Shown here piece after piece: positions 1 through 33,000 of a DNA stretch of 64,000 nucleotides; the first letter of the stretch is position 1, and every line of letters starts with the position of its first letter. A program made the position numbers. The stretch comes from Phallusia mammillata (taxonomy: Eukaryota): NCBI GenBank assembly GCA_965637545.1, contig OZ281497.1:14012001-14076000 (forward strand), in the 5' to 3' direction.

Positions 1-3000
1 TCATGGGAGCTCCAGAATAGGCGACTCGCACAGATTTTCTGTTTCTGAAGATCCCGAAGAGAAATATTCAATGGTATGTGTGTAGCATACATGTTCTAAC
101 ACTAACATCCATGTATAACTTTTCAATACCGCCAAGTTGGCCGAGTGGTTAGCGCAACCGCCTTGTGATCACAAGGTCGTTGGTTCTAATCCCATCTCGG
201 TCGCTTGTGTTTCCCTGAGCAAGAAACTTAAGCGGCATTGCTCCAACCCAGTGGTTTCCAATGGGTTGAACTAAATTGAAGTCACCAACTGCCTAAAATC
301 GAAAAAAATCAAAAAAAAAATGATCATCGGACTTGCAATAAAACAGGCAGCTCGACGGCGGACTCATTGTGAGCATAACGCATTCAGGCGTTGCCCGCCC
401 ACCGAGGATAAAAATGAAACAAACAAACAAACAAACAAACAATAGCTTTCTTTGCATTTAACGCGTAGAAGCGGGCCACTTTAAACACGCGGACTTTATT
501 TATTTAGGAACACATTCGAGCGTTATATAACGAACTCGGTGCTGAAGATCAAGACGCGGTACCCATTCAAACTCTTATGCGCCACCCAGTGTTTGAGGAT
601 GCTGTGTGTGAAACGAAGCGACATGGATGTCCTGTAAGTGTAAATTGTACATGATTTTAATAAAACAAACATATCAGATATTAAAATGCGATAACCACTG
701 AGAATATGGTCAGTTTTCATAAGCCTTGTACGGTTATTTGTGGCATCCATGAAATGTTTGCCCAACGCTAACACAATTGATTTTGATATTGTAATAAAAC
801 GTTAATGCAACTTTTTCAATGCAGGATATTCGATCGATCTTCACTCGTCAAACACTTCAAGCACTTGATGCTGACGACGCACAATCGGATCAAACTTGAT
901 TTTTGCATTGACTGTTTTAATGTTTTTTTACCGTTTTATGCTTCGTAAAGGATTTGTTTTGCGTTTATTGCACAAATATATAATTTTTATTGGCTTATTT
1001 CATGTATCCTTTTTCTACTTATTTCAACAAATACGTTTCTGAAAATATTAAAAGGAACTTTTACGTCGGTAAATCGTTTTCTTGACACAACGACTGCAAC
1101 CTGTGCATCAGCACGTCTTAGGTTTCATCTGACTTCTGAGAACAAAGTAAGAACCAAAATAGAAAACACCACTTTATTGAAACAACCTCATTTGTGGCAC
1201 ACACAATAGTAGTACAAACAGTATCAAAAGAGTCCATTACATGATTGAAGTTTTTTGACACAGTCGATAATTTTCAACCATGCTACGCACCAGGAAAACG
1301 ACAAACAGTTTGCTCAAATCGACTTTCAACATTTTAAGACAGTATTTTTTTCACCGCATTAGTCCGCAGTTAGCAAAGACGTGCAATGTAATGGAGTACG
1401 TATGTAAGGGCATTGCAAGGCTATATACAGTGTTAACACTTCTGGGTAAGTATGTGGCACCCTCTAGACTACGCTGGTTTATGTACAGATTTTGAGGTAG
1501 TTTGTCGGTTAGAACGTTGTTGGAAGGCTGCCGAAGTCGGTCAGAAAACTGTCCGTCTTAACGGTGTCTTGGTTACATGGGCATTACTTACAAAATTTGG
1601 TACAAAAAATGTTATGTACAGCGGCACAAAAAAACATACAAATCACGAAATATGCATTGATAACGAAATGTAATAGTTTGAACACTTTAACTTGTAAAAA
1701 AAGGATGGCTAAAAAAGTAAGAAACCGGCTTGTATAAAAAAGTTAAGGCAATGTTCCGCTCTGTGTGCATTTCATGCAATGTTGAATTGTTGCTGGCAAG
1801 AATTTAGCATGCGGTGCAAATTTGGCGTGTGATGCCGCTGGGAAAGCTAACGCATCTGCAGTTGGCACAGTTACTTGCTGGTGTGACACCTAAATAAAAA
1901 AAGACATTGTTAGAATAAAACAATATCAAATGGAATCGTATCTATATGTGCTTTATTTTATTTTGTTTTTTTTGATACCGTTCTTCGAATTTTAACCAAG
2001 TTGTTTTTGTTAAATGTTGAACCCCCAGAATGGAAAGGTGTCTCAATTTTTTTACCTGCAAGACGCTTGGCAACAGCCGCTGTCACTGGTTTTCCGGCAG
2101 TTCGTGTTCTTGTAGCCAGCTGTGGCGCGCTCCACACAGAACCATCGTTTACAGATGACAGCATGTTTGAGCAGATGTCCGTTTGCGAAACCAGCACCTT
2201 TAAAGCAAGATTATCATAGTTTCACAGAGTATTTTGACAACAATATAATTTACGGAATATTCCTATTGAGGACTTATACCGCATGTGAGTTGTGTAATTA
2301 CCTGATTAAGTTGATCAGCAATTGCAGTTGGATTTTCGCCTCGGATCGATTTTTTAGTGAAGGCGCCGATTTTGTCATAACCGACAACATAGTTTTTGCT
2401 ATTGACCGGTTTGTTGGTGCGAGACGCTTTGGTTTCAATTTCCTGGTTTCGAATCAGATGGAAGTTGATTTCAAAATTGTTAAACATATCAACAACTTCC
2501 GACTGGTCGATCTGCAAAAATTTAGAAAAAATATATTAATGAAACAGCGTAAATTTAGTGGGCATATTTCGATGGGAGAAATTGAAACAAAAAAGTGCAT
2601 TATATTTCTGTGATCAACTAAGCTTCGGACAAAACAACTTTAACATGTTAGAATTGATTACCTTTGGTGATGTCTGGCAATCACTGCAAGTCAGCATCAC
2701 AATGTTTCGTTTTGATGCAGCCTTGAATGGATACATTGCCGCTTGCTTCAAGGCTTCAACGGCAAAAGCACCAGAGTTTGTAGAGGAAGTCGATGGTTCC
2801 ACAAACCGTTTCAACATCTTCTCCAAGCTGTGTGCAGTTCCCATCAGCTGACCGTCAATCGTCACAGTATGCATGTTCACACCGGTTGAATCATACACCA
2901 CCAATCCGTAGCGAGAGTTCTCGTCACCAGCTCCAAGCAGACGGAGAAGACGTGGAAGAGTTGCACGCAAGATGGTGATACATGAGCCACCTTCCATCAC

Positions 3001-30000: not shown

Positions 30001-33000
30001 TCCATGTTTGTGACTTCAGTTGTTTGTTCCCTTGGGGAAATTGCTTGCTTCACAGTATACTTTTTATCATTGAAGAATAATTCAACATTCAACGGTCATC
30101 CAATATCTTGGTAAATCAAGTTTGTACATCGACATCCAGTGAAAACGTTCCACTACCTTATCAGACAATTACGCAGAGCGTCTTGTCGTCTCACAATGCT
30201 CCTTTGCTCCTTGCAACCAATCGACGGCTTTATAAAGGCGGGATGGAGGAGAAAAAATGCGAGCTTGTAAAATAAAGAAAGGTGGTGAAAACAGGCCTCG
30301 CACGCGGCGCATAATAAAACAAAGAAACGTTCCTATGTGACCTGTATTTGTAGTCACTGCACAACAAAAAATTTCCACTTGCTAGTCCCGTATTTTTTGG
30401 CAATTTTAGTTGACATTTATGTATTTTATGTGTTGTTTTTTATGCGAACAGTAAGTCTATTTTTAGGCAATATTTGCGAACAGAGTCGACTCGTTTTCTG
30501 AACATTTAAATTAAGCAAGTAAATATACCGTTTTGTAACTACAATTGTATTTGCATAAATATAAACCTACTTCTTTACCACGTTGACACAAAAAGGTTAA
30601 AACACACTGTTTTTTGTATTGGTACATTTTTTAGGTTGTTTTCACATAAGTAAAGCAGGCCAACAGGATTGTTTATCAACAAAAATGTGTTTTTCAAGTC
30701 CAATCACATTAAAAATATTAGGATGGCCTAACACAGTGGTTCCCAACCTTTTTTTAACGCGACACAAATACTTACCAAAATTTAGTTTTGTGGTTTCTCG
30801 CGACCCATGCACATGCTATTTTAGTTGTATGTTTGTCTGTAAGATAGGAAAGTTTTTTGAAAATTACTACGCCAGTTTAGCAAATCAATAACCTTACAAC
30901 GAACAAACGCTGTTGTTTTTTACGACCAAACATTTCCATTTATTCCGAACTTGGAGCTGAATCGAGGCATTATTTGTCAGACAACGCTCTACTGTGAGCT
31001 AACACATCACTTTATGACGTCACAAACAGTTTTAACCACACAACGAAAAGTTGTGATGAAGTTATTATTGGGCAACAATTTAAAGCCCTGGGTAATATAA
31101 AAGTAACGCTACGAGGCGTCAAAAAGTAGATGCTGTAGTTGTCACTAAAACAAGCGACCCAACAGAATGTTCAGGCGACCCAACTTTGGGAGACGGGCAT
31201 GCGAGCGTTTTTTGCACAATGTGCTCGAAAATGTGCAGGTCGAAATGTGCGCACATTTTTCGAAAATGTGCAGGTGCCAAAATGTGCAGGTCAAAATGTG
31301 CGCACATTTTTTGAAAATGTGCAGGTGCCAAAATGTGCAGGTCAAAATGTGCGCACATTTTTTGAAAATGTGCAGGTGCCAAAATGTGCAGGTCAAAATG
31401 TGCAGGTGCCAAAATGTGCAGGTGAAAATGTGCAGGTGCCGAAATGTGCAAGTCATAATGTGCAGGTGCCAAAATGTGCAGTCGCTCAAATGAAGTATTG
31501 ATATTTAACGTCAAACTATTGTTGTGGTCATAAATTGTGCCAAAAATATTAGTTATAAGTTATGACCTATAAATTAAAATCGGATTTAAGAGAAACTTGT
31601 AAAAATGCATGTTGTGTTTGTTAGATATGGCAAAGCGTGAAATTATCTAGCATTCAGGAAATAGGAAACACTGTTTTTCAGACTAGATATGTACACGATC
31701 GTCACCTCAATCGGTTTGACTTTATTGTTTTTAATTTAAGGCCTGTTAGCTTGTAGCCTGCCCAGCTTCTATAGATTTTACAATTAGACAATAGTATACT
31801 CATATGACAGTCCAGCTATTGTTTCCGTCACGCTTGATTAACACTACACGCTTGTCGGATGCTTGCATTGAGTTTGGTGCTTTAAGAGCAAGCAAATGAC
31901 AAAGCTGGGCTTGTATGGTCAGATTTATGCATCTACCCTGTATAATGTTACTACGTGGTTGTGATTGTGCTGTTGGAGAGTATTTAATGTACGTTTTATC
32001 TTTTTAGTACTTCTTTAAACGCTTTGAAGTGATTTTACCTAACATATTAAAGGGTGCATAAAGTTTATTACTAATTGATTTAAAGTCTGGTAAAAATAGA
32101 ACTTTCCTAACTGGCTGTATCTTTGAACTGATGTTCAACGACTTTGGCCTCGACCAGGAACTCTGGACAGACGAAAGGTCAAGCTTGAACAAAGATCATG
32201 TTTTTTTCCAAAGTTACTCATTTTAAACTGTCAACAAAGGGTAAATTTTGTGAATAAAAAATTAAGTTTATTTGAAGAAAAATTCAAGGCACCAAAACAA
32301 TTGCTAGACATCATAACCACCAAGGAAACTGGTGCAGAAAACACAAGTCAAATTGCTATGATAAGTAACAAAGAGTTAGACACAACAGAGTATTTATGAG
32401 GATATGTTTTTTCAAGGCAAAAAACTAGTTTACGGAAGTTATCAAAATTGTCAGCATGTTGTCAACCATGCGACCACAGGGCCAGCTGATTTCTTTAGTG
32501 GAGCCAAAGTCTGGAGGTCTCGCTTATCCTTTTATGAGTTACTGCAACTTTTACAAAGTGCGTAAATGCCTGACAGGATGTTTACGGCCAGCCAACAAGC
32601 TAGATTTTTACTGCATTGCAAAAGTTACACTGATCCTCACAGAGTTTCCAAAAAAGACATATGTGAAATTCTAGAAGTTGCTGGACTACCATATGAGTAT
32701 ACTGTTATTAAACTCAAAACCAAGTCAAAGACCCAGCTGTCCAGTGATTTTTATTCAATGAAACAAATGAATTATTAGAAAGTTTTCCATCCTTTGGGTT
32801 ATACTGCACAATTGACAAAAGGACTATATATGTGTCTTTGGAAGAAACTCAAATGACAACATTCAAAAAGAAAAGGACAACCACACAGTTGCCCAACTTA
32901 ATGTTTGACATTTTTTATTTGTTTGAGGCTCATTTACATGACATAACTTGGTATATGGGTATTTAATTAGGTTAGTTTTGAAACCCACACAAATACTTGA

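What the first reader, a model, noticed from the sequence alone, without database searches (positions are those of the whole stretch)
1804..30005. Probable chordate-lineage LLTP combining insect-apolipophorin features with apoB-like gigantism
Seen: an LLT N-terminus of the apoB/apolipophorin type, an internal RKKR, one huge central exon, and a retained VWD + Cys-rich + VWA-like tail; roughly 6,500 aa in total. Known: vertebrate apoB-100 (~4,500 aa) has a giant exon 26 (~7.6 kb) but no VWD, while insect apoLp-II/I (~3,300 aa) has VWD and furin cleavage. Inference: if the host is a tunicate, this gene bears on how apoB arose and may serve as both yolk precursor and circulating lipoprotein. Automated pipelines would probably label it vitellogenin or split it.
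Basis: partly seen in the sequence, partly recalled or inferred. Interest (0 to 1): 0.65.

Follow-up and report, generated by a model that had tools for sequence, protein, structure and literature searches.

The report
Giant apolipophorin-type lipoprotein gene
This is an intact minus-strand animal gene for a very large secreted lipid-carrier protein of the apolipophorin/apoB group, whose middle is one 11.6-kb exon made of about sixty copies of a small beta-sheet unit.

Summary
A 50-exon GT-AG model runs from the ATG at 30005 to the stop at 1804: 19,635 coding nt, about 6,544 aa. Exon-by-exon Pfam gives, in order, Vitellogenin_N, Vit_open_b-sht, DUF1081, PF21013 (LOC400499 family), VWD and C8.

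Exon 30 (20842-9277) is 11,566 nt. It is an array of about 59 diverged ~65-aa units, 42 of them recognisable. AlphaFold2 folds four units as an all-beta meander. The sequence is strongly beta-amphipathic.

The only R-x-K/R-R site is RKKR at about aa 698, where apoLp-II/I and apolipocrustacein are cut.

No sequence similarity to apoB-100's belt was found. The VWA-like tail is unresolved. The host is neither human nor vertebrate, and a tunicate origin is not shown.

Best reading: an APO-family LLTP with apolipophorin architecture and an unusually long, regular beta-belt. One new lead: its post-DUF1081 region belongs to the uncharacterised LOC400499 family.

The parts
1804..30005 (-). Whole coding span of the gene model: 50 exons, 49 GT-AG introns (median 76 nt), 19,635 coding nt including the stop.
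   Evidence: Dynamic-programming gene models and a curated model with consistent phases and no in-frame stops.
29954..30005 (-). Exon 1: ATG plus 17 hydrophobic residues, signal-peptide-like. The donor is GTAAGT.
   Evidence: Sequence read directly; exon translation. 'Signal peptide' is my reading; no predictor was run.
25539..29245 (-). Exons 2-11: Vitellogenin_N / LPD_N part of the large lipid transfer module.
   Evidence: Pfam PF01347 pieces in ascending profile order 1-580/590 in 8 of 10 exons.
23933..25177 (-). Exons 13-17: Vit_open_b-sht (DUF1943) beta-sheet of the LLT module.
   Evidence: PF09172 in exon 13 (E 1.4e-16), exon 15 (E 0.08), exon 16 (E 9e-10) and exon 17 (E 8e-6), profile 15-302/303. 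Exon 13's best PDB hit is apoB-100 residues 653-706, E 0.062.
24725..24736 (-). RKKR, a candidate furin/subtilisin-like cleavage site in exon 14, at about aa 698.
   Evidence: It is the only R-x-[KR]-R in the 50 exon translations. It lies between Vit_open_b-sht profile positions 73 and 126. Comparable sites sit at 725/728 in apoCr and apoLp-II/I.
23470..23655 (-). Exon 19: DUF1081, the APO-family marker domain.
   Evidence: PF06448 E 1.7e-6, 28.9 bits against a cut-off of 25, profile 16-66/112.
21669..22450 (-). Exons 24-26: region matching Pfam PF21013 (LOC400499 family).
   Evidence: Exon 24: E 3.9e-12, 45.9 bits against a cut-off of 27, profile 131-194. Exon 26: E 1.3e-3, profile 248-307. 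The 52-aa exon 25 fills the 53-position gap between them.
9277..20842 (-). Exon 30, the giant exon: 11,566 nt, intron phase 2 before it and 0 after it. It holds about 59 diverged ~65-aa amphipathic beta units, each with four strands and a short H-[ND]-x3-L...G-x-P turn or helix.
   Evidence: Open frame of 3,871 codons. Repeat detection and cross-validated control. AlphaFold2 model of 4 units, pLDDT 74.7. Beta hydrophobic moment z = +15.9. No DNA tandem repeat in the exon.
6932..9204 (-). Exons 31-38: a further beta-rich stretch after the giant exon. Exons 31, 33 and 34 give weak partial matches to the repeat profile.
   Evidence: 0 of 200 shuffles reach the real score for exons 31, 33 and 34, but scores are at most 11.3 bits. 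Beta moments. No Pfam hit.
5910..6860 (-). Exons 39-43: a stretch with higher alpha-type than beta-type hydrophobic moment, probably amphipathic helices.
   Evidence: Alpha moments 0.96-1.44 against beta 0.58-0.78 per exon. No Pfam hit. The structural reading is inferred.
3428..5842 (-). Exons 44-45: VWD domain, split by a 1,793-nt intron that holds a 157-bp tandem repeat.
   Evidence: PF00094 profile 2-52 in exon 44 and 78-155 in exon 45. Exon 45 hits the VWD domains of FCGBP (E 7e-11), VWF and mucins in the PDB. TRF result.
3212..3351 (-). Exon 46: C8 domain (5 Cys).
   Evidence: PF08742 E 5.1e-6, 27.1 bits against a cut-off of 23.7; Cys count.
1804..3103 (-). Exons 47-50: C-terminal tail of about 37 kDa when taken with exon 46, with Cys-rich ends. 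Possibly VWA-like, unresolved. The stop is at 1804-1806.
   Evidence: VWA only E 0.11. No PDB hit for exon 47. AlphaFold2 pLDDT 38. Masses.

Best explanation
One intact gene encodes a secreted large lipid transfer protein of about 6,540 aa (about 725 kDa). It belongs to the APO branch (apoB / apolipophorin-II/I / apolipocrustacein) and has apolipophorin-type architecture.

Shown:
- The domain order: signal-like exon, LLT module, DUF1081, PF21013 region, beta-repeat array, helical stretch, VWD-C8-Cys-rich tail.
- The repeat array and its beta-amphipathic character.
- The single dibasic site and its position.

Inferred from what is established for apoB and apoLp-II/I:
- The LLT module nucleates lipid loading in the ER.
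- A furin-type convertase cuts after RKKR. This gives an N-terminal subunit of about 75 kDa (apoLp-II-like) and a subunit of about 650 kDa (apoLp-I-like), which stay on one particle.
- The roughly 236-strand amphipathic sheet (59 units of 4 strands) lies on the neutral-lipid core as a belt. It has about twice the strand number of apoB-100's 120-strand, 61-nm belt, so it suits a larger particle or a double wrap.
- The VWD-C8-Cys tail mediates disulfide-linked assembly or binding, for instance to an egg coat.
For: Gene continuity:
- 50 exons, all GT-AG, phases consistent, no in-frame stop. Start and stop were recovered by unconstrained and constrained models.
- Introns flanking the giant exon are 84 and 72 nt.

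Domains: with ascending profile coordinates.

APO markers: DUF1081 above the Pfam cut-off. The defining features come from Avarre et al. 2007, abstract and passages, and from passages of PMC10799875.

Cleavage site:
- Position about 698, against 725/728 in apoCr.
- The predicted N-terminal fragment is about 75 kDa, against 74-kDa apoCr-II and 80-kDa apoLp-II.

Repeat:
- 42 units of at least 10 bits. 29 of 41 spacings are 59-75 aa; 9 of the other 12 are near multiples of the unit.
- A profile trained on the first half finds 8 units of at least 10 bits in the second half. None of 30 shuffles does so.

Fold: 16 strands and one short helix in 258 aa, pLDDT 74.7, pTM 0.60.

Amphipathicity: beta moment z = +15.9, alpha moment z = -3.1 against 100 shuffles. 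9 of the 10 strongest Fourier periods are 2.0-2.2 aa.

apoB-100 belt figures: PMC11839476, abstract and passages.
Against: - There is no transcript or protein evidence, so the model is ab initio.
- Several boundaries are uncertain: exons 17/18, exons 20/21, and the acceptor of exon 11. Model totals range from 6,403 to 6,544 aa.
- Exon-by-exon comparison with solved LLTPs is underpowered and mixed. Exon 13's best hit is apoB-100 at E 0.062. Exon 3's best hit is MTP at E 0.07.
- The giant exon and its repeat profile have no PDB sequence hit.
- The fold search found 0 matches at E <= 0.001.
- One R-x-[KR]-R is the chance expectation.
- The AlphaFold2 alignment was shallow (12 paralogous rows), and residues 194-222 of the model are below pLDDT 50.
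Confidence: 0.78

Rival explanations
1. The locus is not one transcription unit. The LLT part, the repeat part (a LOC400499-like gene) and the VWD/C-terminal part are separate genes or mainly separate mRNAs, and the 6,544-aa protein is an artefact of the model.
For: - The Atlas clusters carrying PF21013 are only 529-1,026 aa.
- With heavier intron penalties the DP splits the model at the long introns.
- There are no expression data here.
Against: - Phases are consistent across all 49 junctions and no stop interrupts any exon.
- The giant exon is flanked by 84- and 72-nt GT-AG introns with good site scores.
- The splits fall at the model's longest introns. The splits after exons 37 and 44 fall at the two that hold inserted repeats, and the VWD profile runs colinearly across the 1,793-nt one.
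- Short database entries are the usual result of split gene models.
- Extra short 3' isoforms could exist alongside the long mRNA.
Confidence: 0.12
2. It is a true vitellogenin (Vtg family yolk precursor) that has grown a long insert, not an APO-family protein.
For: - It has Vitellogenin_N, Vit_open_b-sht and VWD, which is the Vtg domain set (definition in PMC10799875).
- Ascidian workers call a 453.5-kDa LLTP with a VWD and a C-terminal region 'vitellogenin'.
- A convertase site between motifs N19 and N20 is also noted in nematode and oyster Vtgs.
Against: - DUF1081 is present above the cut-off. It is reported as specific to APO sequences.
- There is no polyserine tract; the maximum Ser content is 30% in any 30-aa window.
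- The size and the long amphipathic beta region are APO traits.
Confidence: 0.08
3. It is the direct orthologue of vertebrate apoB, and its giant exon is homologous to APOB exon 26. The VWD would then have been lost, and the belt shortened and interrupted by inserts, on the vertebrate line.
For: - Both genes have one outsized central exon following many small exons. APOB exon 26 is 7,572 nt and the gene has 29 exons (abstracts seen in the listing).
- Both encode long amphipathic beta-sheets after DUF1081.
- Among the fold-search rows, the apoB-100 fragment has the highest TMq (0.33, prob 0.75).
- Exon 13 aligns to apoB-100 653-706.
Against: - There is no sequence similarity between the giant exon or its repeat profile and apoB-100.
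- The fold match is not significant (E 0.29).
- The gene carries PF21013, a family named after a different human gene. That suggests a paralogous APO lineage rather than apoB itself.
- Exon positions and phases in APOB were not compared.
Confidence: 0.15

Closest known systems
Insect apolipophorin-II/I and decapod apolipocrustacein (APO family of LLTPs)
   Same: - Same domain order: LLT module, then DUF1081, then a C-terminal VWD.
- One RX(K/R)R site about 700-730 aa from the N-terminus.
- A predicted N-terminal subunit of about 75 kDa, against 74-80 kDa.
- No phosvitin-like tract.
   Different: - About twice the length the finding quotes for apoLp-II/I (~3,300 aa, recalled, not checked here).
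- The extra length is a regular array of ~65-aa units in one exon.
- It carries a PF21013 region and a C8 plus Cys-rich tail.
- Whether apolipophorins contain the same repeat was not tested, because no comparator sequence was available.
Vertebrate apolipoprotein B-100
   Same: - An N-terminal LLT module (exon 13 aligns to apoB-100 653-706) and DUF1081.
- A very long amphipathic beta-sheet that, in apoB-100, forms a 120-strand belt.
- One outsized exon.
   Different: - No detectable sequence similarity in the belt.
- This protein has a VWD, C8 and a dibasic cleavage site.
- Its beta region looks like an almost uninterrupted repeat array. In apoB-100, 1,779 of 3,553 C-terminal residues are in nine inserts.
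- About 6,544 aa against 4,563.
Ascidian 'vitellogenin' / Ciona ApoB-like vitelline-coat protein, and the amphioxus egg-coat ApoB-like protein
   Same: - A very large LLTP (H. roretzi, 453.5 kDa) ending in a VWD fragment of about 25 kDa and a C-terminal fragment of about 30 kDa.
- Here the VWD exons encode about 23 kDa and the tail about 37 kDa.
   Different: - The host of the window is unknown and no sequence comparison was possible.
- The predicted protein is about 60% heavier.
- The papers were seen as passages only. The original cloning papers (Akasaka 2010, 2013) are not in the library and were not seen.
Crustacean dLp/HDL-BGBP precursor
   Same: A giant circulating LLTP precursor (4,831 aa in Scylla paramamosain) that is processed by furin.
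   Different: - Its two predicted furin sites lie at about 2,990 and 4,096. Here there is one site, at about 698.
- No domain comparison beyond the passages read.
Pfam PF21013, LOC400499 family (human chr16 gene of unknown function)
   Same: - Exon 24 matches the family above its gathering score, and exon 26 matches below it, colinearly.
- The first 2,000 aa of the giant exon resemble PF21013-bearing clusters by language-model features (0.90, 187/256).
   Different: - Those clusters are short (529-1,026 aa), and no LLT module is reported for them in the Atlas rows.
- The repeat profile does not match the PF21013-matching exons in hhalign (probabilities 0.4%, 3.2% and 0.1%).

Membership tests
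LLTP superfamily | [quoted passage not shown] | tested here: met
   PF01347 pieces covering profile 1-580/590 in order in exons 2-11. Five exons are individually above the 24-bit cut-off.
APO family (apoB / apoLp-II/I / apoCr) | DUF1081 domain after the LLT module | tested here: met
   PF06448 in exon 19, 28.9 bits against a cut-off of 25. Its specificity is as stated by Avarre et al. 2007.
APO family (apoLp-II/I and apoCr subfamilies) | [quoted passage not shown] | tested here: met
   PF00094 in exons 44 and 45. PDB VWD hits down to E 7e-11.
APO family (apoLp-II/I and apoCr subfamilies) | RX(K/R)R convertase site between LLT motifs N19 and N20 (about residue 725) | tested here: inconclusive
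   RKKR lies at about 698, inside the Vit_open_b-sht gap 73-126. Cleavage itself was not tested.
APO family | LLT-module phylogeny groups with apoB/apoLp-II/I rather than Vtg or MTP | not testable with these tools
Single-exon PDB searches were mixed (apoB-100 E 0.062; MTP E 0.07).
Vertebrate apoB | Sequence homology of the central beta region with the apoB-100 beta-belt | tested here: not met
   Giant exon against the PDB, which holds apoB-100 (9bd1 and others): no apoB hit at E <= 1. Repeat profile A3: 0 hits at E <= 10. Foldseek: apoB fragment E 0.29.
Vertebrate apoB | No VWD domain, and no N-terminal convertase processing into two subunits | tested here: not met
   A VWD and RKKR are both present. 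The absence of a VWD in apoB is as stated in the finding and in PMC10799875.
Vitellogenin proper (Vtg/CP family) | LPD_N + DUF1943 + VWD without DUF1081; often a polyserine (phosvitin) tract | tested here: not met
   DUF1081 is present. There is no run of four or more Ser, and the maximum is 30% Ser in 30 aa.
PF21013 LOC400499 family | Match to the Pfam model at or above its gathering score | tested here: met
   Exon 24 alone scores 45.9 bits against a cut-off of 27, E 3.9e-12. Exon 26 scores 17.7 bits, colinear.
Crustacean dLp/HDL-BGBP | Two furin sites deep in the protein giving three apolipoproteins | tested here: not met
   There is only one R-x-[KR]-R, at about 698, against sites at about 2,990 and 4,096.
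VWA domain proteins (for the tail) | Match to the VWA model, or a Rossmann-like alpha/beta fold | tested here: inconclusive
   Pfam VWA E 0.11, below the cut-off. No PDB hit. AlphaFold2 pLDDT 38. The domain would span three exons, which were not joined.

The most novel reading that the evidence does not exclude
The uncharacterised LOC400499 family (Pfam PF21013, which includes a human chr16 gene) descends from this kind of giant apolipophorin-type LLTP. If so, chordates ancestrally had a second APO-type lipoprotein beside apoB, with a regular belt of about 60 units. The human orphan gene would be what remains of it, a fourth LLTP-derived gene in vertebrates that has not been recognised in print.
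Probability: 0.3. Interest if true: 0.75.

Novelty: new variant of a known kind. Interest (0 to 1): 0.5.

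Why it matters
ApoB-type lipoproteins are central to lipid transport. How their very long lipid-wrapping belt arose is an open question.

This gene shows a belt-like region built from about 59 recognisably repeated four-strand units inside a protein with the full apolipophorin domain set. That gives a concrete model for belt growth by unit duplication. At about 6,544 aa it is longer than the large LLTPs I could find figures for: apoB-100 at 4,563, dLp/HDL-BGBP at 4,831, and ascidian 'vitellogenin' at 453.5 kDa.

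It also places the Pfam family named after the human gene LOC400499 inside an LLTP. One paper calls that gene 'unidentified', and no paper in two searches explains it. That makes the function of that gene family testable.

If the gene is already annotated in its genome as apolipophorin-like, the gain is descriptive rather than fundamental.

Tried and rejected
- Heavier intron penalties in the gene model split the gene at its long introns. I judged this an artefact, for two reasons. The introns after exons 37 and 44 hold inserted repeats. The Pfam profiles also run colinearly across the 450- and 452-nt introns (the Vitellogenin_N pieces of exons 7-8 and 9-10) and across the 1,793-nt intron (VWD).
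- Model 1's last exon at 288-149 was rejected in favour of 1889-1804.
- Alignment A1, made of overlapping 4-unit windows, was staggered by MAFFT and was not used.
- Rfam and tRNA scans found nothing.
- The giant exon against the PDB, and its repeat profile against the PDB, found nothing relevant.
- The second Atlas call (second half of the exon, named clusters only, PF21013 skipped) gave no usable hit.
- hhalign of the repeat profile against the PF21013-matching exons was not significant. I therefore do not claim that the PF21013 region is made of the same unit.
- Exon 47 as VWA is unresolved.
- The weak ChlI, ALMS_repeat, CMV_US and similar Pfam rows are below their cut-offs. I treated them as chance or as translations of simple repeats.
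- Genome contigs (bacteria and archaea only) was not used, as it is irrelevant to an animal gene.
- I considered a human origin for the window and rejected it.

Full report
**Scope and rules**

The window has no N. I do not take it for human, for three reasons.
- The neighbouring PRMT5 frame scores 411.7 bits over 404 residues against human PRMT5, about one bit per residue, and 402.5 bits against the Xenopus protein.
- The gene's 49 introns have a median length of 76 nt.
- Rfam finds nothing in the window.

The joined step, meaning any search or fold of the spliced protein, was left out. This limits the phylogenetic question and the VWA question below. Also closed were search for homologous proteins, the search of protein representatives, the metagenome and viral collections, and paper supplements.

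Yes, on the minus strand.
- The longest open frame in the window is 20877-9265 on the minus strand, 3,871 codons.
- Pfam was run on 137 minus-strand stop-to-stop frames. It gave Vitellogenin_N pieces from 29405 down to 25533, then Vit_open_b-sht, DUF1081, PF21013 (LOC400499 family), the giant frame with no hit, then VWD and C8.
- Plus-strand frames across the region gave 0 of 57 Pfam hits.

**Gene model**

I wrote a splice-aware dynamic-programming model. It uses codon usage trained on the giant frame and allows GT-AG introns.
- Run unconstrained, it returned one gene starting at the ATG at 30005.
- With splice-site weights re-learned from 35 short introns, it recovered the terminal exon 1889-1804 and several better internal exons. 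It also split the gene at long introns when the penalties were heavy.
- Forced to make one gene, it gave 6,403-6,441 codons.

I curated two acceptors by reading the sequence against the Pfam alignment ends and confirmed exon 1 by reading. The final model has these properties:
- 50 exons, all junctions GT-AG, consistent phases and no in-frame stops.
- 19,635 coding nt, which is 6,544 aa plus the stop.
- Introns of 57-1,793 nt, of which 40 of 49 are at most 160 nt.

The longest introns hold inserted repeats. One has a 157-bp tandem repeat. Another has a stretch with short inverted repeats, typical of a small transposon.

Some boundaries remain uncertain: exons 17/18, exons 20/21, and the exon 11 acceptor. 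That is why the total is a range of 6,403-6,544 aa.

**Domains, exon by exon**

- Vitellogenin_N falls in exons 2, 3, 4, 5, 8, 9, 10 and 11, at profile positions 1-57, 80-125, 137-180, 191-252, 360-412, 425-462, 472-524 and 533-580. Exons 6 and 7 have no hit.
- Vit_open_b-sht falls in exons 13, 15, 16 and 17.
- DUF1081 is in exon 19 (28.9 bits against a cut-off of 25).
- PF21013 is in exon 24 (45.9 bits against a cut-off of 27, profile 131-194) and exon 26 (17.7 bits, profile 248-307). The 52-aa exon 25 fills the gap between them.
- VWD is in exon 44 (profile 2-52) and exon 45 (profile 78-155). C8 is in exon 46.
- VWA scores only E 0.11 in exon 47.

Exon 1 encodes 17 mostly hydrophobic residues after the ATG, which looks like a signal peptide. 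That is my reading; no predictor was run.

Exon 45 hits the VWD domains of FCGBP (E 7e-11), VWF and mucins among solved structures.

**The dibasic site**

RKKR (24725-24736, exon 14, about aa 698) is the only R-x-[KR]-R in all 50 exon translations.
- One such site is what shuffling gives (mean 1.14). Its presence therefore proves nothing.
- Its place is what matters. It sits in the gap of the open beta-sheet profile (between positions 73 and 126).
- Avarre et al. 2007 put the functional site of apolipocrustacein at 725/728, aligned with that of apoLp-II/I (abstract and passages).
- The predicted N-terminal fragment is about 75 kDa and the rest about 650 kDa. Reported values are 74 kDa for apoCr-II and about 80 kDa for apoLp-II.

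**The giant exon**

Exon 30 (20842-9277) is 11,566 nt, with intron phase 2 before it and 0 after it.

*Repeat structure*
- Its translation shows a recurring motif: an alternating strand ending in H-[N/D], then x3-L, then G-[I/V/L]-P.
- An iterated profile finds 42 units of at least 10 bits. 29 of 41 spacings are 59-75 aa. Nine of the other twelve fall near two, three or six unit lengths, and three (90, 150 and 180 aa) fit no clean multiple. This implies about 59 units in 3,855 aa.
- As a control, a profile trained only on the first half finds 8 units of at least 10 bits (maximum 34) in the second half. None of 30 shuffles has any (maximum 2.7), nor does the reversed sequence.
- Units are only about 5-25% identical to each other, and TRF sees no DNA repeat in the exon. 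The array is therefore old, not a recent duplication or an assembly artefact.
- The stretch at about 2670-3007, where the profile fails, still shows motif-like strings by eye. I see no large non-repeat insert.

*Amphipathic character*
- The beta-type hydrophobic moment is 15.9 SD above 100 shuffles. The alpha-type moment is 3.1 SD below them. Nine of the ten strongest Fourier periods are 2.0-2.2 aa, and the tenth is 12.6 aa.

*Predicted fold*
- AlphaFold2 was run on four units (aa 1614-1871 of the exon), with an alignment of 12 non-overlapping four-unit windows. It gave pLDDT 74.7 and pTM 0.60.
- The model has 16 strands and one short helix, forming an antiparallel beta meander. Residues 194-222 are poorly predicted.

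*Neighbouring exons*
- Weak partial matches to the unit profile appear in exons 16, 17, 22, 24, 25 and 27, and in exons 31, 33 and 34. For each, 0 of 200 shuffles reach the real score, but all scores are at most 11.3 bits.
- This suggests that the beta region extends on both sides of the giant exon. A generic amphipathic-strand signal could explain part of it.

**Is the giant exon apoB-like?**

In kind, yes. By demonstrable homology, no.
- ApoB-100 is in the structure library (9bd1 and others), and exon 13 aligns to its residues 653-706 at E 0.062.
- The giant exon has no apoB hit at E <= 1. The 42-unit profile has no hit at all at E <= 10.
- Foldseek with the four-unit model gives 0 matches at E <= 0.001. 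An apoB-100 fragment (9coo_A) is at rank 34, with E 0.29, prob 0.75 and the highest TMq in the list (0.33). It sits beside a porin-like protein (prob 0.90) and OspA single-layer sheets.
- ApoB-100's C-terminal domain is a 120-strand, 1,774-residue, 61-nm belt plus nine inserts totalling 1,779 residues (PMC11839476, abstract and passages).
- At four strands per unit, the present array would have roughly 236 strands, about twice as many, with no obvious inserts. The belt function is inferred, not shown.

**Family placement**

- The domain set LPD_N + DUF1943 + DUF1081 + VWD, with a convertase site near residue 700, matches the APO family of Avarre et al.. It also matches the summary in PMC10799875 (passages).
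- There is no polyserine tract.
Single-exon comparisons are underpowered: exon 13's best hit is apoB-100, and exon 3's best hit is MTP at E 0.07.

**The LOC400499 link**

- PF21013 is named after a human chr16 gene. In the library it appears only in expression and association lists: 12 papers hold the name.
- I read passages of three of them. They report an intronic SNP with a suggestive HDL-C association, a listing among genes not encoding a known product, and the statement that the gene 'remains unidentified'.
- A further search for YP015, PF21013 and the full name found nothing on function.
- The Atlas places the first 2,000 aa of the giant exon nearest to clusters carrying PF21013, commonest in Chordata. 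The score is 0.90 with 187 of 256 shared features, which the tool itself rates as a lead.
- With those clusters excluded, the second half has no usable named hit.
- Against a simple reading, hhalign of the unit profile against the PF21013-matching exons is not significant.
- So the solid statement is only this: a PF21013 region sits between DUF1081 and the repeat array in one LLTP gene.

**Host**

No tool named the organism.
- Neighbours are an amidohydrolase gene, a SPATA1-like exon, and a PRMT5 gene whose first 431 codons or more are one open frame.
- PRMT5 is equally distant from human and Xenopus and much closer to both than to C. elegans (140 bits). The host is therefore a non-vertebrate animal.
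- A tunicate or another invertebrate chordate is compatible with the PF21013 lead and with intron loss in PRMT5, but this is not shown.
- If it is one, the published counterparts are the ascidian 'vitellogenin'/ApoB-like proteins. That protein is 453.5 kDa in H. roretzi (passage), and its 25-kDa VWD and 30-kDa C-terminal fragments sit on the vitelline coat. A long mRNA is reported in hepatopancreas and short mRNAs in oocytes (passages).
- Amphioxus egg coats also hold an ApoB-like protein (passage).
- Here the VWD exons encode about 23 kDa and the tail about 37 kDa.

**Verdict**

This is an apolipophorin-architecture APO-family LLTP of exceptional size. Its 'gigantism' is a regular array of about 59 amphipathic beta units in one exon. 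It resembles apoB's belt in kind, but homology to that belt is not shown. I rate it a new variant of a known kind and of moderate interest, with one bolder lead: the LOC400499 family may be a descendant of such a protein.

Noticed in passing
window 31211-34144: Two long inverted arms, built of 14-16-nt (and 30/51-nt) tandem subrepeats, are up to 158 nt at 96-97% complementary and lie about 2.3-2.7 kb apart. This looks like a foldback-type transposon about 1.2 kb upstream of the gene's ATG. Translations of the arms give the spurious weak ChlI rows.
   Followed up: partly
window 7097-7740 (intron between exons 37 and 38): This 642-nt intron holds a stretch of about 440 nt bounded by short inverted repeats rich in a palindromic TTCGGCCGAA core. 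This is typical of a miniature inverted-repeat element.
   Followed up: partly
window 4920-5452 (inside the 1,793-nt intron that splits the VWD domain): A 157-bp unit is repeated 3.0 times at 91% identity, followed by an A-rich tract. The VWD profile is colinear across this intron.
   Followed up: partly
window 62707-63999 (+): PRMT5 (TIM-barrel domain and the start of the methyltransferase domain) is encoded in one open frame of at least 431 codons that runs off the window end. No intron is visible in that stretch. It scores 411.7 bits to human PRMT5 over 404 aa.
   Followed up: partly
window 36963-40680 (-) and 47941-48162 (-): Two exons of an Amidohydro_1-family gene match profile 281-330 and 1-40. 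One exon matches the SPATA1 C-terminal domain at E 2.4e-10. No gene models were built for them.
   Followed up: no
window 53208-60140 (-): Several long minus-strand open frames (543, 215, 213 and 178 codons) have no Pfam hit. The 543-codon one is acidic, Ser/Glu/Asp/Lys-rich and looks disordered. They may be large exons of an unidentified gene.
   Followed up: no
window 37854-38026: A perfect tandem duplication of an 85-bp unit (2.0 copies, 100% identity) lies within the amidohydrolase gene region.
   Followed up: no
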